A stretch of 64,000 bases of DNA from Chitinophagales bacterium (lineage in GTDB: Bacteria > Bacteroidota > Bacteroidia > Chitinophagales > Saprospiraceae). Positions 4,938-14,874 of the stretch are shown here, in pieces (positions within the stretch are counted from its first letter, which is position 1; each line of letters starts with the position of its first letter). Under the pieces are notes generated by a model, which saw only the letters and a list, made by a program, of their open reading frames with translations, did no database searches and was not told where the DNA came from. The position numbers and the translations under genes were made by a program. Location: NCBI GenBank assembly GCA_017303875.1, contig JAFLBP010000031.1, forward strand, positions 1,661-65,660, read 5' to 3'.

Positions 4938-6890
4938 TCAACTGCGTAGTACCATAATTTTTCCGCTTTGCATCCGTCCTTTGCTCAGGATGCGGATGGT
5001 ATAAAAGCCCGGCGGCAGATCCTGCACTTCCACCTGGTGCTTGCCGGCACTTACTGATTCTAATTTACGGACGGCCTTGCCCTCGGCATCATAAAGGGTG
5101 ACGGATTGCACTTCCACAGGCAATTCAAGGGTAAACTGTACGCTGGCCGGATTGGGGTAATACAGGGCTTTCAGTTCAGGAGTATTTGTCTGCTGTTGCT
5201 GTTGGGTTTCAAAACGGATTTCCGATTGTCCCTTGCAGTTTTCTGTGGCGGTGTACTCCCCGATCAGGCGCACCAGCAGGTCGTTGAGCAATTCCACTTT
5301 ATATTCATCAGTCGTGGGCTCGAGGTGCTTACCGCCGATTCCGCTGTGGTCGGTCAGAAAAACGTAGGTGCCGTTGGTGGCCAGACCGAAAAATTTCATC
5401 AAAAATTCTGTATCTTTCTGGATGCCGCTGGCTGTAACGGGCACAATGCGGATACCGAGGCGTGCGGCTTCGCGGATGCTTCTTTGCAGGCTGGCGCTCA
5501 CTTCCGGGGTTTGGTGCGGACTGGCGTCGAGCACCAGAAAACAAATGCGCGCTACCGCATCCTGGCTCCAGGACTGGCGGAAAATGGCTTCTTCCAGGGC
5601 GCTGTGAACGGCTTCCGGGTAATCGCCGCCGCCGCCGGCAAACTGCTTGCGGATAAAGCCCACCGTTTTGGAGGCATCGGCGTTCAGGTTGCTGCTTTTG
5701 GTGAGGTAGTCGTCGCCGTTGTCGCGGTAAAACACCGTGCCCATGCGGATGGCGAGTTCGGGGTTGAGGGTTTTGACCCGGCCGATCACGTCGAGCAGTT
5801 CGGTTTTCAGGTATTCAATTTCATCGCCCATAGAGCCAGTGGCGTCAACGGCCCACACGATGTCCACATTTTTGGAAGCGCCGCAGGGGGCAGGCAGTTG
5901 CCAGGTATTTATCCCTGCTTTGGCCTCCTTGAGGTTGCGCCATTCCAGCGCCTGTCCCTGATAATTACAGCGCACTTGCAGTTGATCGGCTGCTTTGTCG
6001 TCGAACAGTCCGACCCAGAGTTCTGCCTTGCCGTTATTGTCGGTGCGGGCTTCCCAGAGCAGCGTGTTGCCGCTGTAGAGCGCAACGGGCTGGTCGGAAA
6101 CGGGCAGCCCCTGCGGGTTAGAGAGCAATACCGTGTAGCGGTGTTTGGGGTAAAAGCCGTAAGTTTTCTGGTGCTCGGCAATTTCGCCATCGGCGAGCAG
6201 GTCGAGCCAGTGCTTATCCCAGTTGTGGAGGTCGTTCCATTCGCCGGCAGTGAGCAGGCCGGCGCGGGGCGAAGGTGCAGCGCCGTGGATTTTGCCTTCG
6301 GCCGGGCTGATCTCATCTCCGCTTGCTATTTCCTCCTCGGTGATGGCGGGCTTTATTTTGTCGTATAGCACAGCGCCCTCCGTAAGCGGCGCTGGGGCGG
6401 GTTTGGCCGTCGAGCGGGGCGCTTCCCGCAAAATACTTTCGCTTTTCATAGTGGCTCGATCGCGGCTATGTGGTGCGGCGGACATCACGGCAACTTCGCC
6501 CATGGTTGTCGCTTCCGGGCGCTGGCTGAAATCCGAGACGGTCATTTCTTCCAGCTCCGCATCAGGTGCGAGCACGAAATTGACCGTATTTTTTTCTTTG
6601 TCTTTTACCGTCACGCCGAGGTAGCGATGGCCGGTGTAGCCCGGCTGCGTGCAGGTCAGCACATAAGTACCCGGCTCGATTTTCAGGGAAAACTGGCCAT
6701 TTTTGTCGGTTTTAAGGGTGGCGATAACTTTCGCCTCCTGTGTGATGACGATGCTGGCGCCGCTCAGGGCTAGGCCGGTGCGGAGATCGTTGACCTTGCC
6801 TTCGAGCAGGGTCGGGTTGTTGAAGAAGGGGAAAAATGCCGTGGAGATGAGGCCGACGGCGAGCAGTAAGATCCAATAGCGCATGTTCAT
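4938..6890 (-). CDS. Secreted vWA-domain protein with an N-terminal CarboxypepD_reg-like domain and a T9SS C-terminal sorting domain
   Basis: MIDAS-type vWA start VDIVWAVDATGSMGDEI. N-terminal motif ..GKVNDLRTGLALSGASIV...TDKNGQFSL.IEPGTYVL. C-terminal YYPNPASVQFTLEL...GFYTIRIL...KIMVLRS. Start taken at MNMRYWILLL (6890); alternatives are 6917 and 6884. Confidence 0.8.
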   Translation of the reverse strand: MNMRYWILLLAVGLISTAFFPFFNNPTLLEGKVNDLRTGLALSGASIVITQEAKVIATLKTDKNGQFSLKIEPGTYVLTCTQPGYTGHRYLGVTVKDKEKNTVNFVLAPDAELEEMTVSDFSQRPEATTMGEVAVMSAAPHSRDRATMKSESILREAPRSTAKPAPAPLTEGAVLYDKIKPAITEEEIASGDEISPAEGKIHGAAPSPRAGLLTAGEWNDLHNWDKHWLDLLADGEIAEHQKTYGFYPKHRYTVLLSNPQGLPVSDQPVALYSGNTLLWEARTDNNGKAELWVGLFDDKAADQLQVRCNYQGQALEWRNLKEAKAGINTWQLPAPCGASKNVDIVWAVDATGSMGDEIEYLKTELLDVIGRVKTLNPELAIRMGTVFYRDNGDDYLTKSSNLNADASKTVGFIRKQFAGGGGDYPEAVHSALEEAIFRQSWSQDAVARICFLVLDASPHQTPEVSASLQRSIREAARLGIRIVPVTASGIQKDTEFLMKFFGLATNGTYVFLTDHSGIGGKHLEPTTDEYKVELLNDLLVRLIGEYTATENCKGQSEIRFETQQQQQTNTPELKALYYPNPASVQFTLELPVEVQSVTLYDAEGKAVRKLESVSAGKHQVEVQDLPPGFYTIRILSKGRMQSGKIMVLRS

Positions 6891-6962
6891 TTTTTTTAAG
6901 TATTTCGCGTTGTACACCCCGCGTTGGGGCTGTTGCGCTATGGATGCCGGAGGAGGAAAAAT

Positions 6963-6999
6963 TACATAAACCGTCTTAACCGGGATTTGGGGGGATTTT
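6963..6999 (+). repeat. 37-bp repeat, copy A (tacataaaccgtcttaaccgggatttggggggatttt)
   Basis: 35/37 identical to 14943-14979 in the same orientation. The core is also present inverted at 15072-15119. Confidence 0.85.
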
Positions 7000-7046
7000 T
7001 TGGATTTGCATAACTTAACAGACTTGTGATGCTTTAAGAATTATAA

Positions 7047-7054
7047 TATCTTTG
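7047..7054 (+). promoter_or_regulatory. Candidate -7 box (TATCTTTG) with an upstream TTG for the vapBC operon
   Basis: A TAnnTTTG match lies 23 nt upstream of the ATG at 7077. TTG at 7024-7026 sits about 20 nt upstream of the box. Confidence 0.45.
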
Positions 7055-7076
7055 TTCCGGAATTAAAAAATAACGT

Positions 7077-7289
7077 ATGGCTCAACAATCCATCGCAGAA
7101 ATATTTTCTGTACTCCCACCGGCACAACAGCAGGAACTGTTGGACTTTGCAGACTACCTGATCAAGAAGTATAGTGATACCCAATCTAAATCACTTCATA
7201 AAAGGCAAGCAGGAACCATGAAAGGTTTGGTTCAATTTATGGCTGAAGACTTTAATGCACCACTTCAGGACTTTAATGCCTATATGTGA
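7077..7289 (+). CDS. DUF2281-type antitoxin (VapB-like)
   Basis: 70 aa. ..LPPAQQQELLDFADYLIKKY.. and the C-terminal KGLVQFMAEDFNAPLQDFNAYM are typical of DUF2281 antitoxins. The stop overlaps the downstream PIN gene start. Confidence 0.75.
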   Translation: MAQQSIAEIFSVLPPAQQQELLDFADYLIKKYSDTQSKSLHKRQAGTMKGLVQFMAEDFNAPLQDFNAYM

Positions 7290-7675
7290 TGAAGCATGTA
7301 TTACTCGATACACAGGTTTTAATATGGTACCTGGAAGGAGATGAACGCTTGCCTGACCATATCAAACAGCTTATAGAAGATTCCTCGAATAACATTCAAG
7401 TGCATATAGTTTCCTTTTGGGAAATCGCTATCAAACGCAGCTTAGGTAAACTACTATTATCACAAAGTACTATCAGTCTTATACGGGAATGCATCAGACA
7501 ACATATCAGTATATTACCATTGTCTCCCGAAGAATTGACCTCAGTGGAATCGCTCCCTTTCTATCACCGCGACCCTTTTGATCGTTTAATCATCAGCGCC
7601 GCCGTCAGTAATGGATTACTATTGGCCAGTTCCGACGAGCAATTTGACGACTATCCTGTTACCAGAATTTACTAG
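7289..7675 (+). CDS. vapC: PIN-domain toxin, type II TA VapC family
   Basis: LLDTQVLIWYL.., ..SFWEIAIK.., ..HRDPFDRLIISAA.. and ..LASSDEQF carry the conserved acidic PIN residues. ATG at 7289 shares one nt with the antitoxin TGA; a GTG at 7286 is also possible. Confidence 0.85.
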   Translation: MKHVLLDTQVLIWYLEGDERLPDHIKQLIEDSSNNIQVHIVSFWEIAIKRSLGKLLLSQSTISLIRECIRQHISILPLSPEELTSVESLPFYHRDPFDRLIISAAVSNGLLLASSDEQFDDYPVTRIY

Positions 7676-7857
7676 CCAATTCTCCACCACCAAATCCCGG
7701 CACCGATAAAATCCTTCAAATCAAAAAAAATCAAGCAAATCCTGATTCTAAACCTCCCCTGTACTACACTTCGCTGCGGCGGGCTGCTTCGCTTGCCCAT
7801 GCCGCTACTCCGTTCCGTTCAGGCCTTTTCGCTCAATTGATGGCCGGGATAGGCAAT

Positions 7858-10800
7858 CTACTGACTGGGGGACACGACCCGGAACCCGACACCGTAGCCG
7901 CGATTAACAGGACTGCGGTCGTAGCGATACGACACTCGGCCATACGTGGCGTCGTCGACCCAGGAGCCGCCACGCAGCACACGGCCCGAGCCGGAAGCAG
8001 GCCCTTGTGGGTTGGTCTGGGCCTCCGAAGGGTAGGCACCTTTCCAGTCGCTGCACCATTCCCACACATTGCCTGCCATATCATACAGCCCGAGGGCATT
8101 GGGCCGGAAAGAACCCACCGGGGTGGTTTTGCCGCGATACTCCCCGACGACGGAGTAAGGCTTTTTGTACTCGGCGCTGGCATCAAAATTAGCCTCCCTG
8201 GGGTCTAAAATATTTTTACCATTGCCAAACAAAACGGCTTTGCCGCCTTCGCGGGCAGCGTATTCCCATTCGGCTTCGGTAGGCAGGCGGTAGTTGCGGC
8301 CGGGGTAGCGGGCATTGAGTTTTTGCAGGAAGGTTTGTATGTCATCCCAGCTTACCTGTTCTACCGGGCAGTCGGGGCAGTCCTTAAAATTGGAAGGATT
8401 TTCACCCATTATCTCTTGCCATTGCCGCTGGGTGACTTCGTATTTACCCATATAAAAATCCGAGAGGGTCACGCGGCGGGTGGGTTTTTCGTCGTCGTAA
8501 CAGTCCTGCTGCTCGCTGGTACAGCCCATGGTGAAGGTGCCGCCTTTGATGCGTACCATGCTGGCTTCGGGGTCTTTGAGCAGGGCATCGCGTTCGGCGG
8601 TGGTAGCCGGGGCGAGTAGGGCTTGCTGCTGTGGCTGCTCAGGGGGCGGTGCTGAGCCTTCCACTTCGCGCTTGAAGGCGGCCCAGGCGGCGGCATCTAC
8701 TAATTTTTTCGGACTTTCCTTGCCGGTCAGGTCGTAGCTGCGGTAGAGGTCTTTGGTGCTCAGGCCGTAGCGTTGCAGCAGGGCGCGCACGAGGCGCACG
8801 GCATTGGCGCGGGTTTGGGGCCAGGGAGATTCGGGCTTATCGCTGTCGCAGAGCGTTATGCCCAGCAGCACCTTGTTGAGGCCATCCGGGTTTTGGCGCA
8901 GCAGTTCCTGCCCGAGGGGGCGGTAATTGGCACTGCCTGCATGGTAGGCGATTTCACCTTCCGGGATTACTTGGAGCAGCGTTTTGTCATCCACCACAAA
9001 ATGGGTTGAAGGCGGCCGGTCTATTTTGTTGTAATAATTCCATATTTGTCTCGCATTCAAAGGATCAAATGACCAATACAACACAATGCCCTTTACGGCC
9101 TGCATTTTATAGCGCAGCGAATCCTTCAGTGCAGGTCGGGTTTCGGGATTGCTCAGGAAATCCTGTACCACATCTGGCAGCACGGGGGTGTTTTGTATGG
9201 GGTAGTTTCGGCGCTTGGGGGGCTTGGGGGGCACTTCTCCAACGCCCTGCAACAAGGTTTCGAGGTTCACCGGCATATGCAGGCGCAGGGTATCGAAGTA
9301 GAGGGAGTCGGTTTCTGTCAGTAGTATATTATAATATCGTCTTGCCTCGTCTAACCTATTCCCTGCATTAATCAACGATCGAGTACTATTATTGGCATTT
9401 TTTCGATTTCCCGGATATTGTGCATACACTTTATCCTGAAAGTATGCCGACAGCCCAAGCGCATGCCAGATATTGGAACGCACTGGTGTTGATACTTGTA
9501 AATCTCCATTGCTCAGAGCGCGCCATTTGGCGTCTAAGGTATTAAAGTCAAATGTTCGGCTGAATCGGGTTGAGTCATTTGCATTATCATCCTCTTGTGC
9601 CAAAATGATCCCCCCATTTTGTATTGGAGCGGCAACCCTGATAGAATCATTCAGGTAAAAATTAAAATACTGTGCGATACAGTTGTATTTAAAATGCCCG
9701 GGATGATCAAAAGTTTGGGGCATTATGTCATCATCCGGCCGCCAAAGAAAAGGCCCGTCTATATAGCTATTGGCCTGCACTTTAAATTTCAAAAACAAAC
9801 TATCAGCCATCCTTATGCTGTCCTGATATGGGCCTATCCATTGAGAAAAAGATTTTACATTCCTGATATTCAGCGCCATCCACACCGCCTTATTGTGCCA
9901 AATCTGTGCGGAATCTACAAATTGCTCCTCTTGTATAAAGGTCTCATGGCTTTGCTGCTCCTTCAAGGTATTCAGGTGCGTATGCATCCAAAACGCATAA
10001 GCCCACATCCCCAGCGCAAGCAGTACGCCCAGCAGGCCCCACCAAAAATGGCGGGTAAAACGCGGGCGATGGGCCAGATAAGCCGCTACCGTGCTGACCG
10101 GCAGCGCAATGCGCCGATCCACAAAGCCATCGAGGGCGCGCAACTGCTCGGGCGAAAAATAGCCCAAGGCCAGCAGTTCGCGCAGGGCCTGGCGATGGCT
10201 TTCATTTTCAGGATCTAAGGTAAAGCGGTGCAGACTGAGGTTGGTTTTCCAGTCTATCTCGGCGTAGCTGCCGCGCACCTGGTCCTGTACGGCTTCCAGG
10301 GTTTCGGCGACGGCCAAGCGGGCTTCCCGCTCCTGCTCCGGACTCAGGCAGGCCAGCAGGGCATTGGCCAACTCGGGGTCATATTCATTACGGCTGAGCC
10401 AGGGCACACGACTGAGGCGCAGCAGCCGGTCGTGGGTGCAGTCCAACCCTAATCGTTTGCCAATGGCGAGGGTGAGGGCAAAGTCAGGCTGTACGCTCAC
10501 CGCCAGGGCGCAAAGCCAAGTAAAGGCTTCGGGGTCGTGCGCAAAATAGGCGCGGATGGCCTCGGGATCGCGCCAGTTCACGGTGCGCGGATTGGGTTCC
10601 GCGCGGCGGGCAGCGAGGCGCTCCTCCCAACGGTCATAGGGGCCGGGTTCGTATTCGTCGAGGGTTTCCAGGCTACTCAGTCCGGCCAGTATACCCTCCG
10701 TGTCGGCGGGGTACAGCAGCATTTCCCGGTGCAGCAGCACCTCGGTATCTTTCCAGGCGCTCAGGGGCTGTACACTCAGGAAAAGGCGTTTTTTCCAGCT

Positions 10801-12441
10801 CGCCAATCGCTGCATGGTTTCTGGCAGCAGGGCAGGCAGGCGGGTATCGTATACATTGAGCAGGCCCGCGCCGCTGCCGAGTAGCACGAGGCGGCGGTCG
10901 GCGAAATGTTGTTGTATTTTATCCAAATGCAGTCCCGCCGGATGGGCGTCGTTCCAGAAGTTGCGGTAGTCGCCATTGTGGTAAAAAACCTCCAGGGGGG
11001 CGTCCTGGCGCTGAAAAAACCTTCCCAAACGCTCCAGCAGGCGGCCTTGCTGATCAAAAGCCGTCGGCCGTTCGATGAGGAAAAGCCAGGCTGGCGGACT
11101 CTGCTCGCGGCGGCTTAGCAGGGTTGGGAAACCACCGGCATTGATGGTGGCGCGCACGGAAGCAGGGATATCCCAACTGCGTTTTTCGTTTTCTTCCCGG
11201 CGGCGCAGCAGTTCGGCCATGCGGAAAAAGTCGGGCGGCGTGGCAATTTTATCGTCCTGCGGCAGGTAAGGAATAAAATACGGTGCTTTGTCGTGTATCG
11301 GGTGCTGCTCGGCCAGTGCAGCCGGGTCGGCAGTTTCGTGCTTGCGGCGACGGGCCAGCCACCAGCGCCAAAAGCACCAGAGCGCAAACAACAGGGGCAA
11401 AAGCGGCAGCGCCCATACCCAGGCGTACAGGCGGTAGCGCATGGGCGTGGAAGTGTCGTAAGCCAAAGGCGCATACGCCAGCAGGGGCTTGCTGTTGCCA
11501 ACATCAAAAGCGAGCGTCGTGTCAGAATAGCAGTACAGGCTGTCCCGTGCAATCCGACAGCGCACCGTTGCAGAGCCGTTTTCGCGGAAGGTATAGCGGG
11601 CGGTATTTCCCCAAACGGAATCCTTGCGGTTGAATATCCAGCGTACCACAACGCCTTTTTCGGGCTTGGGCAGAGAAAACATGTAGGCAGTATCGGTGCG
11701 CAGGGGCGATTGAGGGGTTTTGAGGCCCAGGAGTGAAGGCGCTGCGGTGCAGTGTACCGACAGGAGCAGGGAATCCTTGCCGCGCACACCTGCGTGCAGG
11801 GATAGGCTTCGGTCGCGCCCGATGTCGGTGGCTGTCCAGCGGAAATGCTCAGAAGTATCGCGGCGTTCGAGTGCGCCGGTAGCGGCATCGCGGAGTTCCC
11901 AGGAGGAGGAATCGGGGTGCAGGTTTTCGCTCAGGTTTCGGAATACGTGGGGTTCGCCTTCGCGCAGGCGGCCGTCCGGCAGCAATTTTTCAAATTCCGG
12001 CGGCGGCAGCGGGGTTGTTTTGCCTGTTGGTGTTGTAAAAATAAAATAGGCTACCAGGCCCAGCAGCAACAGTCCCGCAACAGCGAGCAGCCATTGCCGG
12101 AAATCGCGGCGGGGCTTTATCGGGGGCGTTGGATCGGGTGTTGCCGGTGGTTCAAAGGGGATCTTTTCGGCGCTCCATTCGGCAGCTTCTTTTTCGCATT
12201 CGGCCCAAAATTGTTCAAAAATAAGATAAAAACGGCCTTGTTCTTCGGCATTGGTAGCGACAAATGGCGCGAGGCGTTGCGCCAACGCGCTGGCGGAGAA
12301 CTGGCCGATATGTTGGGTGGCGTATTGTTCAAATACCTGCAATAAGCGCAACTTCCGTCCGGTATCCATGCGGAAACCGGCGGCTTTGAGCTGGGCGAAG
12401 AGTTGCTCCAGCGGCAAAGGAATGTGTGCTTGCGGTGGCAT
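7858..12441 (-). CDS. 1527-aa three-TM multidomain protein: N-terminal helical module, MIDAS-less vWA-like cytoplasmic segment, and PGRP/amidase_2-like plus FGE-sulfatase-like C-terminal domains
   Basis: TM helices lie at about aa 117-136, 338-362 and 799-819, each flanked by R/K clusters on the predicted cytoplasmic side. aa ~423-590 reads WDIPASVRATINAGGFPTLLSRRE..PPAWLFLIERPTAFDQQ...LEVFYHNGD...RRLVLLGSGAG. aa ~1117-1247 is amidase_2-like (IVLYWSFD..STHFVVD..AYHAGSANY..LGITLCD..YRSYDLTGKESPK). aa 1295-1527 is FGE-sulfatase-like (MVRIKGGTFTMG...YMGKYEVTQRQW...RLPTEAEWEYAAR...YDMAGNVWEWC...RVLRGGSW). Confidence 0.85.
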   Translation of the reverse strand: MPPQAHIPLPLEQLFAQLKAAGFRMDTGRKLRLLQVFEQYATQHIGQFSASALAQRLAPFVATNAEEQGRFYLIFEQFWAECEKEAAEWSAEKIPFEPPATPDPTPPIKPRRDFRQWLLAVAGLLLLGLVAYFIFTTPTGKTTPLPPPEFEKLLPDGRLREGEPHVFRNLSENLHPDSSSWELRDAATGALERRDTSEHFRWTATDIGRDRSLSLHAGVRGKDSLLLSVHCTAAPSLLGLKTPQSPLRTDTAYMFSLPKPEKGVVVRWIFNRKDSVWGNTARYTFRENGSATVRCRIARDSLYCYSDTTLAFDVGNSKPLLAYAPLAYDTSTPMRYRLYAWVWALPLLPLLFALWCFWRWWLARRRKHETADPAALAEQHPIHDKAPYFIPYLPQDDKIATPPDFFRMAELLRRREENEKRSWDIPASVRATINAGGFPTLLSRREQSPPAWLFLIERPTAFDQQGRLLERLGRFFQRQDAPLEVFYHNGDYRNFWNDAHPAGLHLDKIQQHFADRRLVLLGSGAGLLNVYDTRLPALLPETMQRLASWKKRLFLSVQPLSAWKDTEVLLHREMLLYPADTEGILAGLSSLETLDEYEPGPYDRWEERLAARRAEPNPRTVNWRDPEAIRAYFAHDPEAFTWLCALAVSVQPDFALTLAIGKRLGLDCTHDRLLRLSRVPWLSRNEYDPELANALLACLSPEQEREARLAVAETLEAVQDQVRGSYAEIDWKTNLSLHRFTLDPENESHRQALRELLALGYFSPEQLRALDGFVDRRIALPVSTVAAYLAHRPRFTRHFWWGLLGVLLALGMWAYAFWMHTHLNTLKEQQSHETFIQEEQFVDSAQIWHNKAVWMALNIRNVKSFSQWIGPYQDSIRMADSLFLKFKVQANSYIDGPFLWRPDDDIMPQTFDHPGHFKYNCIAQYFNFYLNDSIRVAAPIQNGGIILAQEDDNANDSTRFSRTFDFNTLDAKWRALSNGDLQVSTPVRSNIWHALGLSAYFQDKVYAQYPGNRKNANNSTRSLINAGNRLDEARRYYNILLTETDSLYFDTLRLHMPVNLETLLQGVGEVPPKPPKRRNYPIQNTPVLPDVVQDFLSNPETRPALKDSLRYKMQAVKGIVLYWSFDPLNARQIWNYYNKIDRPPSTHFVVDDKTLLQVIPEGEIAYHAGSANYRPLGQELLRQNPDGLNKVLLGITLCDSDKPESPWPQTRANAVRLVRALLQRYGLSTKDLYRSYDLTGKESPKKLVDAAAWAAFKREVEGSAPPPEQPQQQALLAPATTAERDALLKDPEASMVRIKGGTFTMGCTSEQQDCYDDEKPTRRVTLSDFYMGKYEVTQRQWQEIMGENPSNFKDCPDCPVEQVSWDDIQTFLQKLNARYPGRNYRLPTEAEWEYAAREGGKAVLFGNGKNILDPREANFDASAEYKKPYSVVGEYRGKTTPVGSFRPNALGLYDMAGNVWEWCSDWKGAYPSEAQTNPQGPASGSGRVLRGGSWVDDATYGRVSYRYDRSPVNRGYGVGFRVVSPSQ

Positions 12442-12538
12442 TAGTTATTCAAATGCGGAATGTTTCAAATGCGGAATGCGGAGTGCGGAATACCCCTTCC
12501 TTCAGGAGGGCCGGGGTGGGTTGCGGAGTACGGATGAA

Positions 12539-12739
12539 CGACCCTGAAGGGGTCGAATATGAATAGCCCCGGATGCAATCCGGGGTTCGTAGTAACATAG
12601 CCAACGACCCTGAAGGGGTCGAATATGGCCCGGCGTATCCCGGCATTTTAATATTCGACCCCTTCAGGGTCGGATAAACCTGATTGATATACCCCGGATT
12701 GCATCCGGGGCTATCCATATTTGACCCTTTCAGGGTCTG
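12539..12739. repeat. Composite REP/BIME-like palindrome (U-P-U / U'-P'-U')
   Basis: Unit cgaccctgaaggggtcgaatat occurs at 12539-12560 and 12605-12626. Its exact reverse complement is at 12651-12672, with a diverged copy at 12717-12739. The hairpin ccccggatgcaatccgggg (12567-12585) recurs inverted at 12691-12712. GCGGAAT word repeats lie upstream at 12449-12491. Confidence 0.85.
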
Positions 12740-12807
12740 TGCATCCGGGTACAGGTGCATTGTGCAAGGATGCTGCCTGGTATCGCTTGTTGCCAATCGT
12801 CTGTTCC

Positions 12808-13731
12808 TCATGGCAAAATTTGTTTTAAAACCTTGTGCACGGCATCGAGGTCGTCCTTGGTTTTGATGAGGAAGGACAGGTTTTCTTCTTTGAGTTGGCG
12901 TTGTCTGGCGGTGTCGGCGCTCCAGAAGCCTTTGGTTTGCAGGAGTTTGAGCCAGGCAATCAACTCGGCGGTGGCCGGCGATTTGCGCACAGAAGCGGCG
13001 CGGATTTTTTCAAAAAAACTGATCAGGTCGTCGTAACCCGCTTTGGTTTGTTCGGTGATGCCGCCGAGGTGCAGCGACACGATGTCGCGCAGGTCCTGTC
13101 CCTTCGGAAATTCGATATGGTAAAAAGCGCAGCGGCGCAGAAAGGCGTCGGGCAGGTTTTTTTCCGAATTGGAGGTCAGGATAACCACAATATCGGCCGC
13201 CGGATTTTTCTGCGCTTTAAATCCGGGAATTTCGCGGATGGCAAATCGGTAGTGCAGGATTTCATCAAGCAGGTCGTTGGTGAAATCGCGGGGCGCTTTA
13301 TCCACCTCGTCGATGAGCACCACACTGCTTTTAGGCTGTTCGGGCAGCGCAATACCGAAGGTTTGCAGGAGCGCGGGGTCGAGTCCTTCCGGACGGGAAT
13401 AGGCCACTGCTTCCCCGAATGCGTTGAGACTGATGAAATTTTCGGCGGGCGTTGTGCGCTCAATATTGCGCAGGTTGGCGGCCTGGAAATGAGACAGTGC
13501 GTCGTAAGTATAGAACAAATCCGTGGCCCTCGACACCGTTTTGGTATTAAACACCAGCACTTCCTCATGGAATCGGCCGGGGTATTTGTTTTGCAGGTAC
13601 TCAAGTGCCCAGCGGGCCATTTCGGTTTTGCCGGTGCCCGGCTCGCCGGTGAGCAGGAGGGGTTGTTTCATCTGGACGGCGGCCTCAAAAGCATTTTTCA
13701 GGCTGTCGCTTGCTTTATATTTAATCGGCAT
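12808..13731 (-). CDS. MoxR-class AAA+ ATPase
   Basis: 307 aa. Walker A is LLLTGEPGTGKTEMA, Walker B is VVLIDEVDKAPRDF, sensor-1 is VVILTSNSEKNLP and the Arg region is DAFLRRC. The size and single-AAA architecture are typical of MoxR. Confidence 0.9.
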   Translation of the reverse strand: MPIKYKASDSLKNAFEAAVQMKQPLLLTGEPGTGKTEMARWALEYLQNKYPGRFHEEVLVFNTKTVSRATDLFYTYDALSHFQAANLRNIERTTPAENFISLNAFGEAVAYSRPEGLDPALLQTFGIALPEQPKSSVVLIDEVDKAPRDFTNDLLDEILHYRFAIREIPGFKAQKNPAADIVVILTSNSEKNLPDAFLRRCAFYHIEFPKGQDLRDIVSLHLGGITEQTKAGYDDLISFFEKIRAASVRKSPATAELIAWLKLLQTKGFWSADTARQRQLKEENLSFLIKTKDDLDAVHKVLKQILP

Positions 13732-13737
13732 AAGCGC

Positions 13738-14874
13738 TTATTTTTTCGAGTTGATGCGGGCAATGCGTTTGTTGTGTTCGATGATGCGCTCGCGGAGTAT
13801 TCGCTCCACGGCTTCCATATCCATTTGCTGGATGTTGCCAAAAAGCTGATCCACCATTTGATTTTCATCTTTATCCATATCCACCATAAGGCGGCGGTAG
13901 CGGCTGAACCACTCCACCATATCGGGGCGCGTAACGGCTCGGAGTTCTTCGAGGGTTTCTTGCGGGGCGGTGGCGGCGTGCTCGCGGATGACGGCGTCTA
14001 CTTCAGCGCGTTTGTTGGTGTTGTCCGCCGCGTATTCGATACCGAAGAAAAAGAAAAATTGAGGCGCCGTATCAGGCAGGGCAGCGGCGAGGAAGGTAGT
14101 GACAAAATCGCGGACAAAAACGGGGGTGACGGCCTTGTTCCAGTTAGCATCGTCCATGGTGATGAGCACGAACACGTAGTCGTTCGGGCCGTAGCTGCTC
14201 AGTTCGGGGCTTTGCAGCAATTCGCCGATATTTTTTTGTAAAATCGGCTCTTTTTCGTTTACTTTATCAAAAAAATTGGCCAAAAGCGCTTTAATTACCT
14301 CAATTTTATACAGCATGGGCACAGAGCGCACGCTTGGTTTGAGGTATTTAAACAGGACTTTGGTGCCCGATTCGTATTGCCCGTTTTCCCAGTTGAGCAG
14401 TTGGCCGCCTTGTTCGCGGCCGAGGCGTTCGTGCAGGCTCTCATGCGCCTGCGCGGCATCGCCGTAGAGGTAAAATTTATGTATTTTTTTGCCCTGTCCG
14501 TCGGTGTAAAAATACAATTCAAAGGCGTCGCGCTGGGCAAAGCGGTCGCAGGTCAGGGCGTGGTATTCGGGCAGGCAAAAATGGTCTTTGCAATTGGCCT
14601 GCCAGGCCTCGTTGAGGTCTTCAAATCGGATGCGTTCGATAAACCAAAGCAGGGCTTCGGCAACGCTGTTAAAGGTTTTGGATTGATCCCGGAAGTCAAT
14701 TTGACCGAAATGCCCGGCAGCGCGGGCGTTGTTGTAGCGCGACTGGAGGAGGATGAGTTCGTTGTAACGCGGGCTGTCTTGCTGGAGCGCTTCCTCAATA
14801 CTGGCAATCACCTCATCGTAGCGGGCTTCGCCGACAAGGTTTTTCCAATTGTATTTAAGGGCTGCCTCCAACAT
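13738..14874 (-). CDS. Hypothetical protein: EAD-like helical N-terminal module plus an alpha/beta region lacking a Walker A motif
   Basis: 378 aa. The stop is 6 nt from the MoxR start. The N-terminus ..YDEVIASIEEALQQDSPRYNELILLQSRYNNARAAGHFGQIDFRDQSKTFNSVAEALLWFIERI resembles the helical effector-associated domains at the N-termini of Bacteroidota STAND/TIR proteins. YLYGDAAQAHESLHERL sits where a P-loop would be. The function call is an inference. Confidence 0.65.
   Translation of the reverse strand: MLEAALKYNWKNLVGEARYDEVIASIEEALQQDSPRYNELILLQSRYNNARAAGHFGQIDFRDQSKTFNSVAEALLWFIERIRFEDLNEAWQANCKDHFCLPEYHALTCDRFAQRDAFELYFYTDGQGKKIHKFYLYGDAAQAHESLHERLGREQGGQLLNWENGQYESGTKVLFKYLKPSVRSVPMLYKIEVIKALLANFFDKVNEKEPILQKNIGELLQSPELSSYGPNDYVFVLITMDDANWNKAVTPVFVRDFVTTFLAAALPDTAPQFFFFFGIEYAADNTNKRAEVDAVIREHAATAPQETLEELRAVTRPDMVEWFSRYRRLMVDMDKDENQMVDQLFGNIQQMDMEAVERILRERIIEHNKRIARINSKK

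What the first reader, a model, noticed from the sequence alone, without database searches (positions are those of the whole stretch)
7858..14874. Three-gene operon (EAD-like adaptor, MoxR AAA+ ATPase, 1527-aa transmembrane vWA-like/PGRP-like/FGE-like protein): candidate envelope-sensing NTP-dependent conflict system
Seen in the sequence:
- The three ORFs are co-directional. The stop of the first (13738) is 6 nt from the MoxR start (13731).
- MoxR and the giant gene are separated by 366 nt that are filled by a palindromic repeat cluster.
- MoxR has intact Walker A (GEPGTGKT), Walker B (VVLIDEVD) and sensor-1 motifs.
- The giant protein has three TM helices (about aa 117-136, 338-362 and 799-819) with R/K clusters (KPRRDFRQ, ARRRKHE, HRPRFTRH).
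- By the positive-inside rule, those clusters place aa 1-116 and 363-798 in the cytoplasm and aa 137-337 and 820-1527 outside.
- The cytoplasmic segment at about aa 423-590 has the beta-alpha alternation and the preceding 'DIPASVRATINAGGFP' motif that I associate with CoxE/vWA partners of MoxR. The MIDAS DxSxS is replaced by E-R-P-T-A.

Established knowledge:
- MoxR ATPases normally act on a vWA partner.
- Comparative-genomic work, which I recall from the Aravind group, described vWA-MoxR-associated ternary conflict systems that use FGE-sulfatase-type and effector-associated (EAD) domains.
- To my knowledge these systems are untested experimentally, and this transmembrane PGRP-containing architecture has not been described.

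Inference: the protein acts as a periplasmic ligand sensor coupled across the membrane to a MoxR-remodelled vWA-like module and an EAD-type adaptor. No obvious effector enzyme is encoded in the operon.
Basis: partly seen in the sequence, partly recalled or inferred. Interest (0 to 1): 0.85.

Follow-up and report, generated by a model that had tools for sequence, protein, structure and literature searches.

The report
Membrane-spanning iSTAND–MoxR–vWA conflict system
This three-gene operon is a member of a bacterial "ternary conflict system" class that has been described by computation but never tested; its giant membrane protein displays a catalytically dead cell-wall-binding domain and a hypervariable lectin-like domain in the periplasm.

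Summary

The operon is an iSTAND-type MoxR-vWA ternary system, a class defined by Kaur et al. 2020 (eLife). Their description already includes TM segments, FGE-type (FGS) domains in about 22% of cases and peptidoglycan-binding domains after a TM. So it is a new member of a known, experimentally untested kind.

- **Gene order.** EAD11-iSTAND, then AAA+, then the giant protein is conserved in about 30 of 37 genome loci, almost all Saprospiraceae or Lewinellaceae.
- **vWA-like region.** The fold is supported but not proven. This copy has lost both hallmark aspartates.
- **Dead enzymes.** The Amidase_2 domain lacks all three zinc ligands, and the FGE domain lacks both catalytic cysteines. Both are binding modules.
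- **Hypervariable tip.** The FGE tip (7891-7986) carries a diversity-generating-retroelement (DGR) signature. Three related loci have reverse transcriptase and template repeats; this window has neither.
- **Spacer.** The 366-nt spacer is an inserted cluster containing a dispersed palindromic repeat.
- **Effector.** None lies in the window. TIR-EAD11 proteins encoded elsewhere in other Bacteroidota genomes are the likely partner type.

I favour outside-in sensing, which is an inference. Interest is moderate.

The parts
13738..14874 (-). Third component: 378-aa cytoplasmic EAD11 + inactive STAND (iSTAND) protein
   Evidence: Pfam finds EAD11 at aa 6-82 (1.2e-14) and iSTAND at aa 107-278 (9.5e-13). 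The P-loop site reads YGDAAQAHES, with no GK[ST] in any of 31 orthologues. No TM segment is present.
14629..14859 (-). EAD11 adaptor domain (aa 6-82)
   Evidence: It is the only EAD11 in the window. In related locus L036 a TIR domain occupies this position, and TIR-EAD11 plus EAD11-Fib_succ_major genes lie downstream.
14041..14556 (-). iSTAND domain (aa 107-278)
   Evidence: Pfam PF19995, 9.5e-13. The Walker A lysine is absent across the family.
12808..13731 (-). 307-aa MoxR-like AAA+ ATPase, predicted active
   Evidence: Best Pfam hit is AAA_5 (3.5e-9, profile positions 1-138 of 139). Best solved-structure matches are Midasin, a MoxR-clade protein (2.8e-5). Walker A (13624-13647), Walker B (13300-13323), N188 and R199-R200 are invariant in 37 orthologues.
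12442..12807 (.). 366-nt spacer: inserted cluster of palindromic repeats
   Evidence: Repeat structure is shown. In homologous operons the AAA+ to giant-gene gap is typically -11 to +6 nt. The spacer is identical in two other assemblies, whose contigs break inside it. Its 21-mer occurs in 57 metagenome stretches, never near operon homologues and never inside a long reading frame. No Rfam family matches.
7858..12441 (-). 1527-aa three-TM 'vWA component' carrying the variable periplasmic modules
   Evidence: The core family has 2914 representative clusters at E<=1e-3. NCBI names this protein MBN8684468.1, 'SUMF1/EgtB/PvdO family nonheme iron enzyme [Chitinophagales bacterium]'.
12094..12441 (-). 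Cytoplasmic N-terminal domain (aa 1-116), conserved
   Evidence: It is detected in 117 of the 155 family representatives and has many invariant residues. It is a candidate for the CoxE-type four-helix N-domain described by Kaur et al. That assignment was not tested structurally.
11431..12033 (-). Periplasmic loop domain (aa 137-337) between TM1 (12034-12093) and TM2 (11356-11430)
   Evidence: Hydropathy and K/R flank counts. Conserved in 75 of the 155 representatives. No Pfam hit.
10642..11124 (-). Cytoplasmic vWA-like alpha/beta domain (about aa 440-600) with a degenerate metal site (E457, S523)
   Evidence: AlphaFold model from a 46-sequence alignment has pLDDT 88.7. Its strand and helix order is b1-a-b2-b3-a-b4-a-b5-a-b6-a. 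Foldseek's top hit is RGLG2 vWA (E 1.7e-3, prob 0.91); NorD of the NorQD complex ranks 3; TM-scores are 0.3-0.36. VWA_CoxE is the only Pfam family hit recurrently, in 11 of 46 members. The family consensus has D at 457 (58%) and D at 523 (60%).
10048..10641 (-). Cytoplasmic helical domain (about aa 601-798), highly conserved, leading to TM3 (9985-10047)
Evidence: W642, R708 and others are near-invariant. It may correspond to the vWA-L linker of Kaur et al. 2021. That was not tested.
9262..9984 (-). Periplasmic domain of unknown fold (aa 820-1060) ending in the conserved DSLYFDTL...PVNL motif
   Evidence: Alignment. Single-sequence search detects it in only 23 of the 155 representatives.
8656..9096 (-). 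Amidase_2 / PGRP-like domain (aa 1116-1262), predicted catalytically inactive
   Evidence: Pfam 1.6e-11. The zinc ligands of PlyL (H29, H129, C137) align to Y, S and S here. They are intact (H, H, C) in relatives P0012, P0065 and P0068. pN/pS is 0.31 against the sister strain.
7873..8565 (-). FGE-sulfatase / C-type-lectin-fold domain (aa 1293-1523), non-catalytic
   Evidence: Pfam 1.9e-54. It matches the Treponema DGR variable protein TvpA at 1.6e-27 (whole protein) and 3.3e-30 (domain alone). Human FGE Cys336 and Cys341 align to D and G.
7891..7986 (-). Probable DGR variable region (codons 1486-1517)
   Evidence: Compared with a 95%-identical strain, 23 of 25 nucleotide differences fall at codon positions 1-2, against 61 of 163 in codons 1061-1485 (Fisher 2.5e-7). 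17 of 32 residues differ, against 50 of 425 (1e-7). The differing codons align with AAY codons of the template repeat in relative L007. No template repeat or reverse transcriptase lies in the window.

Best explanation
This is an iSTAND-type MoxR-vWA ternary conflict system of the membrane-spanning subtype.

**Shown**
- Three conserved, co-oriented genes encode an EAD11-iSTAND protein with an eroded P-loop, an AAA+ ATPase with intact motifs, and a three-TM giant protein.
- The giant protein has a cytoplasmic vWA-like module and a variable periplasmic C-terminus.
- Here the periplasmic end is a zinc-less Amidase_2 (PGRP-like) domain plus a cysteine-less FGE/C-type-lectin domain. The tip of the lectin domain varies between near-identical strains in the manner of a DGR target.

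**Inferred mechanism (outside-in sensing)**
1. The periplasmic binding modules recognise an envelope-level cue. Candidates are a phage or other invader surface protein for the variable lectin tip, and muropeptide or damaged wall for the dead amidase.
2. The change is passed through TM3/TM2 to the cytoplasmic vWA-like module.
3. The MoxR-like ATPase sets or resets the state of that module, acting as an ATP-dependent threshold.
4. The iSTAND protein then assembles. Through homotypic EAD11 contacts it recruits an EAD11-tagged effector encoded elsewhere, most plausibly a TIR-EAD11 protein.

My confidence that the system belongs to this class is about 0.85. My confidence in the direction of signalling and in the effector is about 0.4-0.5.
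For: **Class**
- Pfam finds EAD11, iSTAND, AAA_5, Amidase_2 and FGE-sulfatase.
- The gene order is conserved in all five loci found by protein identity and in about 30 of 37 genome loci, with unrelated flanks.
- The core is homologous to the large third gene of proteobacterial iSTAND operons. Those operons carry DUF4062- or CHAT-iSTAND proteins, and their large proteins carry WD40 or IcmF_C domains.
- The class description in Kaur et al. 2020 matches point by point.

**vWA-like module**
- Fold model, Foldseek hits to vWA and NorD, recurrent weak VWA_CoxE hits, and family-level aspartates at the ends of strands 1 and 4.

**Binding modules rather than enzymes**
- All three zinc ligands are lost in Amidase_2, and both catalytic cysteines are lost in FGE.
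- Both regions are nevertheless under purifying selection, with pN/pS about 0.3.

**Variable receptor**
- DGR-type hypervariation at 7891-7986.
- Genuine VR/TR pairs with adenine-specific mismatches next to reverse transcriptases in relatives: L007 19/19, L023 12/13, L021 15/17.

**Topology**
- Hydropathy and the positive-inside rule. The 2+1 TM layout dominates the family.

**Effector in trans**
- TIR replaces EAD11 on the iSTAND protein of L036, with TIR-EAD11 next door.
- TIR-EAD11 is a recurrent stand-alone family in other Bacteroidota contigs.

**Prior proposal**
- Dore et al. 2024 proposed the sensor reading for vWA + lectin proteins.
Against: - No experiment exists for any iSTAND system.
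- PADLOC has no model that matches.
- The window copy has lost both vWA aspartates (E457, S523), so canonical peptide capture by a metal site is unlikely.
- Foldseek TM-scores are low, and other Rossmann-like folds score similarly.
- No Pfam vWA model hits this protein.
- No EAD11 partner, reverse transcriptase or template repeat lies in the 64-kb window.
- The direction of signalling is not constrained by sequence. Kaur et al. proposed the opposite flow.
- The 366-nt repeat insertion may uncouple expression of the giant gene from the other two genes.
- Topology rests on hydropathy and charge counts only.
Confidence: 0.5

Rival explanations
1. Inside-out model, as originally proposed by Kaur et al. 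The cytoplasmic iSTAND protein is the invader (nucleic-acid) sensor. MoxR-vWA acts as a threshold switch. The periplasmic Amidase_2-like and variable lectin domains are the output: 'neutralising' binders or wall-associated modules deployed at the envelope to block entry or spread of the invader.
For: - This is the published model for the class.
- C-terminal modules vary between relatives like effector cassettes: FGE, TPR, Cys-rich repeats, and active-looking Amidase_2 in P0012, P0065 and P0068.
- The C-terminal third has a separate evolutionary history from the core.
Against: - Both periplasmic domains here lack catalytic residues, so they cannot damage anything.
- They are already outside the membrane, so 'release' by a cytoplasmic switch is hard to picture.
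- DGR diversification is typical of ligand-recognition surfaces.
- The EAD11 adaptor implies a further, separate effector.
Confidence: 0.25
2. The system is not immunity. It could be an envelope-surveillance or cell-cell (kin or filament neighbour) recognition receptor of filamentous Saprospiraceae-type bacteria. The variable lectin tip and the muropeptide-binding pseudo-amidase would report wall status or neighbour identity to a cytoplasmic ATP-gated switch.
For: - The family is almost confined to Saprospiraceae, Lewinellaceae and Haliscomenobacter. From my own knowledge these are largely filamentous, gliding bacteria.
- The system sits among housekeeping and type IX secretion genes rather than in a defence island.
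- The pseudo-amidase fits sensing of the cell's own wall.
Against: - EAD11, iSTAND, TIR, CHAT and trypsin partners in relatives are hallmarks of conflict and cell-death systems.
- C-terminal cassette turnover and DGR targeting fit an arms race.
Confidence: 0.15
3. It is a decaying relic. This copy has lost the vWA aspartates and the amidase zinc site, and it has been split by a repeat insertion. The operon may therefore no longer function as a unit.
For: - E457 and S523 replace the family's aspartates.
- Y/S/S replace H/H/C in Amidase_2.
- A 366-nt insertion lies between the ATPase and giant genes.
- No DGR cassette lies nearby.
Against: - All three ORFs are intact.
- pN/pS is 0.13-0.15 in the core and about 0.3 in the C-terminal modules against a sister strain.
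- The ATPase motifs are perfect.
- The same degenerate residues and the same spacer are kept in independent assemblies.
- About 40% of family representatives also lack D at one or other of these positions.
Confidence: 0.08

Closest known systems
iSTAND ternary systems (MoxR-vWA-iSTAND), Kaur, Burroughs, Iyer & Aravind 2020, eLife 9:e52696
   Same: - The same three components in the same operon logic.
- An EAD on the N-terminus of iSTAND.
- A MoxR without the VMAP-type extensions.
- A vWA component with a conserved N-terminal domain, TM segments and a variable C-terminus.
- FGS as the commonest C-terminal domain.
- Wall-associating domains after a TM.
- Enrichment in Bacteroidetes with a multicellular habit.
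   Different: - The wall module is an Amidase_2/PGRP-type pseudo-enzyme. The paper lists PEGA, OmpA, PASTA and Sel1 instead.
- A 2-TM periplasmic loop domain sits between the N-domain and the vWA-like domain.
- Both vWA aspartates are lost in this copy, whereas the paper says most ternary-system vWA domains keep them.
- The paper describes DGR targeting for VMAP systems, not for iSTAND systems, in the text I could read.
DGR-diversified 'putative antigen sensors' next to MoxR ATPases (Dore et al. 2024, PNAS 121:e2316469121)
   Same: - A large protein with a C-terminal variable C-type-lectin domain directly after a MoxR-like ATPase.
- Some versions have TM segments that put the lectin domain in the periplasm.
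- The sensor-to-ATPase-to-effector model.
- Real DGR cassettes in three relatives of this gene.
   Different: - Those examples are VMAP-type or lack a recognised third component, and they come from purple sulfur bacteria and cyanobacteria.
- Here the third component is EAD11-iSTAND in Bacteroidota.
- The window itself has no reverse transcriptase or template repeat.
CoxD-CoxE and NorQ-NorD type MoxR-vWA chaperone pairs
   Same: - An AAA+ ATPase of the MoxR type encoded next to a vWA-fold partner.
- VWA_CoxE is the only Pfam family recurrently hit by the core (11 of 46 members).
- NorD ranks third among fold matches.
   Different: - No metalloenzyme client lies in the neighbourhood.
- The partner is a 1527-aa membrane receptor-like protein.
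- The metal-binding site is degenerate.
- An iSTAND third component is present.
Animal non-catalytic peptidoglycan recognition proteins (PGRPs), from my own knowledge
   Same: An Amidase_2 fold with the zinc-ligand cysteine replaced by serine, which in animal PGRPs is associated with recognition rather than cleavage (alignment; the animal comparison is recalled, not tested).
   Different: - All three ligands are lost here, not only the cysteine.
- The domain is part of a bacterial inner-membrane protein.
- Muropeptide binding is untested.

Membership tests
iSTAND ternary system (Kaur et al. 2020) | Third component with an inactive STAND NTPase domain | tested here: met
   Pfam PF19995 at aa 107-278, 9.5e-13 against a cut-off of 24 bits. 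The P-loop site lacks GK[ST] in 31 of 31 orthologues.
iSTAND ternary system (Kaur et al. 2020) | Adjacent AAA+ ATPase with intact NTPase motifs | tested here: met
   Walker A, Walker B, sensor-1 N188 and R199-R200 are invariant in 37 orthologues. AAA_5 is the best Pfam hit.
iSTAND ternary system (Kaur et al. 2020) | The ATPase belongs to the MoxR clade (helix-2 insert) | tested here: inconclusive
   The best solved-structure hits are Midasin, but only over the P-loop region (2.8e-5). AAA_5 rather than the MoxR model AAA_3 is the Pfam hit. About 100 residues separate Walker A from Walker B, which fits an insert. No structure was modelled.
iSTAND ternary system (Kaur et al. 2020) | Partner protein with a vWA fold (six-stranded alpha/beta) | tested here: inconclusive
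   The model has pLDDT 88.7 and a vWA-like strand and helix order. The top Foldseek hit is RGLG2 vWA (E 1.7e-3) and NorD ranks 3, but TM-scores are 0.3-0.36 and other Rossmann-like folds are close. VWA_CoxE is hit in 11 of 46 family members (best E 0.015), though not in this copy.
iSTAND ternary system (Kaur et al. 2020) | Two conserved aspartates at the ends of strands 1 and 4 (metal site) | tested here: not met
   The window has E457 and S523. The family consensus has D at both positions (58% and 60%). The class definition says 'most' members keep them, so this lowers the likelihood of canonical peptide capture rather than class membership.
iSTAND ternary system (Kaur et al. 2020) | Conserved three-gene neighbourhood | tested here: met
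   The order iSTAND, AAA+, giant protein is found in L001-L007 and in about 30 of 37 genome loci, with different flanks.
iSTAND ternary system (Kaur et al. 2020) | Variable C-terminal modules on the vWA component | tested here: met
   Relatives carry FGE, TPR, Cys-rich repeats or Amidase_2+FGE. The C-terminal third diverges about 10-fold faster than the core between sister strains.
iSTAND ternary system (Kaur et al. 2020) | Four-helix CoxE-type N-terminal domain | not tested
   A conserved N-terminal domain exists, detected in 117 of the 155 representatives. No structure or profile comparison was run for it.
EAD principle (Kaur et al. 2020, 2021) | A second copy of the same EAD fused to an effector, in the operon or elsewhere in the genome | tested here: not met
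   No second EAD11 occurs in the 64-kb window. It is seen in relative L036 (TIR-EAD11, EAD11-Fib_succ_major) and as stand-alone TIR-EAD11 genes in other genomes. The rest of this genome is not available here.
DGR target (variable protein) | C-terminal C-type-lectin/FGE-fold domain with a hypervariable tip | tested here: met
   The domain matches TvpA at 1.6e-27 (whole protein) and 3.3e-30 (domain alone). Codons 1486-1517 differ at 17 of 32 residues between 95%-identical strains. 23 of 25 changes fall at codon positions 1-2, at sites aligned with template AAY codons.
DGR target (variable protein) | Cognate template repeat with adenine-specific mismatches, plus a reverse transcriptase | tested here: not met
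   Neither is found in the window. Both are present beside relatives L007 (19/19 mismatches at A), L023 (12/13) and L021 (15/17). They may lie elsewhere in this genome.
N-acetylmuramoyl-L-alanine amidase (Amidase_2) as an enzyme | Zinc ligands His, His, Cys | tested here: not met
   PlyL H29, H129 and C137 align to Y, S and S. Relatives P0012, P0065 and P0068 keep H, H, C.
Formylglycine-generating enzyme | Catalytic cysteine pair (human C336, C341) | tested here: not met
   The pair aligns to D and G in 'GGSWVDDATYG'. The NCBI name 'SUMF1/EgtB/PvdO family nonheme iron enzyme' therefore describes the fold, not a function.
Catalogued anti-phage defence systems (PADLOC 2.0) | Significant match to a system model | tested here: not met
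   The giant and iSTAND proteins have no hits. The ATPase has only weak P-loop-level hits (IetA 4.5e-8 over 28 residues).

The most novel reading that the evidence does not exclude
The giant protein may be a programmable trans-membrane immune receptor. Its periplasmic lectin tip would be rewritten by a remote DGR. Together with a PGRP-like pseudo-amidase, it would detect invaders at the envelope and signal across the inner membrane through an ATP-gated, metal-independent vWA-like switch. That switch would act on an iSTAND/EAD11 hub that recruits a TIR effector. This would be a bacterial counterpart of receptor, adaptor and TIR signalling in animal innate immunity, with somatic-like receptor diversification.
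Probability: 0.3. Interest if true: 0.75.

Novelty: new member of a known kind. Interest (0 to 1): 0.42.

Why it matters
Ternary MoxR-vWA systems are a large class of predicted bacterial immunity or cell-death machinery, and none has been tested experimentally.

This family offers a compact three-gene version with a clear topology. All candidate recognition modules are periplasmic and non-catalytic, the ATPase is intact, and natural variants differ almost only in the receptor tip. That makes the central open question directly testable: which end senses and which end acts.

The analysis also corrects a misleading database name ('nonheme iron enzyme'). It shows DGR cassettes beside iSTAND-type systems in Bacteroidota, and it points to TIR-EAD11 proteins as the likely missing effector type.

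It is not a new kind of system.

Tried and rejected
- **Solved-structure sequence searches.** Profile searches with the core alignments A2 and A3 gave no vWA hit. The best was a PglZ protein at 0.053.
- **First structure model.** The model of aa 363-798 from 8 sequences was poor (pLDDT 63.7) and its fold search was uninformative. A deeper alignment was needed.
- **Pfam, NCBIfam and PADLOC on the giant protein.** Nothing was found for aa 1-1115.
- **NCBIfam 'MadB family AAA-type ATPase'.** The hit scores 81 bits against a cut-off of 475, so the ATPase is not a member. A literature search for MadB found nothing relevant.
- **EAD11 alignment against the 5.8-billion-protein set.** This returned nothing. 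I replaced it with local HMM searches and a TIR-EAD11 query.
- **Template repeat and reverse transcriptase in the window.** Neither is present.
- **The spacer.** Rfam gave only sub-threshold chance hits. The sigma-70 promoter and intrinsic-terminator scan showed nothing in the spacer on the coding strand, but that scan does not cover Bacteroidota promoters.
- **ORF 12449-12811 (120 aa).** It lies inside the spacer, has no family hit and overlaps the palindromes, so I rejected it as a gene.
- **Supplement of Kaur et al.** The one file held as text contains no mention of amidase, PGRP or Saprospiraceae.

Full report
**1. Observation**

The three ORFs exist exactly as described, all on the minus strand: 13738-14874 (378 aa), 12808-13731 (307 aa) and 7858-12441 (1527 aa). 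Six nucleotides separate the first two.

A 366-nt spacer (12442-12807) separates the second and third. It holds four copies of GACCCTGAAGGGGTCGAATAT and two of CCCCGGATGCAATCCGGGG, arranged as nested inverted repeats with arms up to 47 nt at 94% complementarity. These sequences occur nowhere else in the window.

Walker A (GEPGTGKT) and Walker B (VVLIDEVD) are present. Hydropathy peaks lie at aa 117-136, 338-362 and 799-819, and the flanking K/R counts fit an N-in topology. That puts aa 1-116 and 363-798 in the cytoplasm and aa 137-337 and 820-1527 in the periplasm.

**2. What the proteins are**

| Protein | Domain | Residues | E-value |
|---|---|---|---|
| 378-aa protein | EAD11 | 6-82 | 1.2e-14 |
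| 378-aa protein | iSTAND | 107-278 | 9.5e-13 |
| 307-aa protein | AAA_5 | 24-200 | 3.5e-9 |
| Giant protein | Amidase_2 | 1116-1244 | 1.6e-11 |
| Giant protein | FGE-sulfatase | 1293-1523 | 1.9e-54 |

PADLOC has no matching system. The iSTAND P-loop site (YGDAAQAHES) lacks GK[ST] in all 31 orthologues. The ATPase's Walker A, Walker B, N188 and R199-R200 are invariant in 37 orthologues. One NTPase is therefore dead and the other looks live. The best solved-structure matches of the ATPase are Midasin, a MoxR-clade protein, but only around the P-loop.

**3. The class is already described**

Kaur et al. 2020 (PMC7159879, section 20) define 'iSTAND ternary systems' as MoxR + vWA + an inactive STAND protein. 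Their description includes:
- EADs on the iSTAND N-terminus;
- a CoxE-like N-terminal domain on the vWA component;
- TM segments in about 28% of cases;
- FGS as the commonest C-terminal domain (about 22%);
- peptidoglycan-associating domains preceded by a TM;
- concentration in cyanobacteria, proteobacteria and Bacteroidetes with a multicellular habit.

Amidase and PGRP are not mentioned in the text or in the one supplement held. Dore et al. 2024 (PMC10907252) proposed that the vWA + lectin protein is the sensor, with MoxR relaying to the third component's effector. They noted TM versions with periplasmic lectin domains.

**4. Conservation**

A word-indexed search found only seven relatives, at 39-50% identity. 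A full HMM scan with the cytoplasmic core found far more: 2914 representative clusters at E<=1e-3 and 795 at E<=1e-30. Most are 1000-1900 aa long, with the core starting near residue 350.

Five homologues looked up by identity all sit in the same three-gene order with unrelated flanks. The ATPase-to-giant gap there is -11 to +6 nt. A scan of species-representative genomes returned 37 loci. Almost all are Saprospiraceae, Lewinellaceae, Haliscomenobacter or related Bacteroidota MAGs, and about 30 show iSTAND, then AAA+, then the giant protein.

Four distant loci came from Belnapia, Gammaproteobacteria and Acidobacteriota. In three of them the large gene still matches the core in the local search (E 1e-14 to 1e-17). 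At least three are iSTAND operons with DUF4062- or CHAT-iSTAND proteins, and their large proteins carry WD40, PASTA or IcmF_C domains.

**5. Is aa 423-590 a vWA domain?**

No Pfam vWA model hits the window protein. Profile searches of solved structures also find nothing.

A 46-sequence alignment of aa 378-625 gave a confident model (pLDDT 88.7, pTM 0.81). Its order of elements is b1(452-457)-a-b2-b3-a-b4(517-522)-a-b5-a-b6-a, which is the vWA order. The Foldseek results were as follows:
- the top hit is the RGLG2 vWA domain (E 1.7e-3, prob 0.91);
- NorD of the NorQD complex ranks third;
- RGLG1 vWA ranks sixth and tenth;
- TM-scores are only 0.3-0.36, and flavodoxin-like, transhydrogenase and TIR folds score nearby.

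Each of the 46 members was also scanned against Pfam. VWA_CoxE is the only family hit recurrently: 11 members, best E 0.015, with the next family at 3 members.

In 156 aligned sequences the residue ending strand 1 is D in 58% and E in 18%. The residue ending 'RLVVLGD' (strand 4) is D in 60% and N in 19%. The window has E457 and S523.

My verdict is a CoxE-type vWA-like module that is probable for the family and has a degenerate metal site in this copy.

**6. The periplasmic modules are binders, not enzymes**

Aligned to PlyL and XlyA, the three zinc ligands of Amidase_2 (H29, H129, C137) are Y, S and S in the window and Y, N and S in its sister strain. Relatives P0012, P0065 and P0068 keep H, H, C. 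Human FGE Cys336 and Cys341 align to D and G.

Single-sequence searches of the 155 family representatives detect FGE in 77 and Amidase_2 in five. The Amidase_2+FGE combination therefore recurs but is a minority.

**7. A mosaic gene with a DGR-type variable tip**

A 95%-identical protein (P0009, locus L045) allows a codon-level comparison.

| Codons | pN | pS | pN/pS |
|---|---|---|---|
| 1-1060 | up to 0.005 | 0-0.03 | 0.13-0.15 (codons 363-798 and 820-1060; no differences in 1-116 or 137-337) |
| 1061-1527 | about 0.09 | about 0.30 | about 0.3 |

The C-terminal third thus has a separate history, most simply explained by recombination, yet it remains under purifying selection.

Within codons 1486-1517 (window 7891-7986), 17 of 32 residues differ. 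Of 25 nucleotide differences, 23 lie at codon positions 1-2, compared with 61 of 163 in codons 1061-1485 (Fisher p = 2.5e-7). The differing codons align with AAC/AAT codons of a template repeat found in a relative.

That relative, L007, has HRDC and reverse-transcriptase genes directly after the giant gene. It also has a 133-nt template repeat whose 19 mismatches to the gene's 3' end all fall at template adenines. L023 (12 of 13) and L021 (15 of 17) show the same pattern.

The window has no reverse transcriptase and no template repeat. The cognate retroelement must therefore be elsewhere in the genome, or it has been lost.

**8. The spacer**

The 366-nt spacer is identical in two other assemblies, whose contigs end inside it. 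It is absent from homologous operons.

Its 21-mer occurs in 57 metagenome stretches, many from one sample. None is near operon homologues and none lies inside a long reading frame. Rfam has no match.

It is an inserted cluster containing a dispersed palindromic repeat, not a conserved part of the system. Its effect on transcription is unknown.

**9. The missing effector**

No second EAD11 exists in the window. In L036 the iSTAND protein carries TIR instead of EAD11, and TIR-EAD11 and EAD11-Fib_succ_major genes follow the giant gene.

TIR-EAD11 is a recurrent roughly 265-aa family. In other Bacteroidota contigs it is encoded as a stand-alone gene away from iSTAND operons. By the 'EAD principle', a TIR-EAD11 protein encoded elsewhere is the most plausible partner. 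This is an inference.

**10. Mechanism and verdict**

I favour outside-in sensing. Periplasmic non-catalytic binders detect a cue, the vWA-like module and the ATPase form an ATP-gated switch, and iSTAND/EAD11 recruits an effector.

The inside-out model of Kaur et al., a non-immune envelope or kin-recognition role, and a decaying relic remain possible. The relic reading is disfavoured by the selection data.

This is a new member of a known, computationally defined class. Its notable particulars are the PGRP-like pseudo-amidase, the 2-TM loop insertion, the degenerate metal site and the DGR-type tip. Interest is moderate: it makes a good experimental entry point but would not surprise a specialist.

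Noticed in passing
window 6983-7754 (PIN ORF 7286-7675, + strand): A roughly 770-nt segment carrying a PIN-domain (VapC-like) gene lies just downstream of the giant gene. It is absent from the otherwise 97%-identical sister assembly L045, so it looks like a strain-specific toxin-antitoxin insertion.
   Followed up: partly
window 4938-6917 (- strand): The next gene downstream encodes a type IX secretion substrate with CarboxypepD_reg, a canonical VWA domain and a Por_Secre_tail. It is also the neighbour in L045 but not in more distant loci.
   Followed up: partly
window 7858-12441: NCBI names this protein (MBN8684468.1) 'SUMF1/EgtB/PvdO family nonheme iron enzyme'. Both catalytic cysteines are absent, and 85% of the protein is unrelated to that fold.
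   Followed up: yes
window 9262-9300 region (around codon 1050-1060): There is a sharp boundary in divergence from the sister strain. Synonymous divergence is about 0.01-0.03 upstream and about 0.30 downstream, which points to a recombination breakpoint at the start of the variable periplasmic cassette.
   Followed up: partly
window 10001-12000: GC content is 0.61 here, against about 0.51 in the flanks and 0.46-0.57 across the rest of the window. The stretch encoding the giant protein's first ~810 residues (N-terminal domain, TM1-TM3, periplasmic loop and cytoplasmic core) is compositionally distinct.
   Followed up: no
window 12448-12478: A tandem direct repeat, TTCAAATGCGGAATG x2 with 16-nt spacing, sits immediately upstream of the giant gene's start codon. 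It is separate from the palindromes and could be a regulatory or promoter element.
   Followed up: no
L017 2868-5963 and 8910-12974: One Saprospiraceae MAG locus carries two giant-protein paralogues flanking the iSTAND and AAA+ genes.
   Followed up: no
L038 2249-7048: A Haliscomenobacter locus has the giant gene with about 2.2 kb of upstream sequence but no detectable iSTAND or AAA+ gene there. It is an exception to the conserved order.
   Followed up: no
L036 9449-11758 and 6867-7634: EAD11 is also fused to a Fib_succ_major-domain protein, and a second Fib_succ_major gene follows the giant gene. This suggests EAD11 partners other than TIR.
   Followed up: no
L049-L105: The spacer's 21-mer is found in contigs spanning 33-61% GC, with about 14 hits in one sample (Ga0193752). 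No locus contains the second palindrome motif from the window's spacer. The element family and its host range are unclear.
   Followed up: partly
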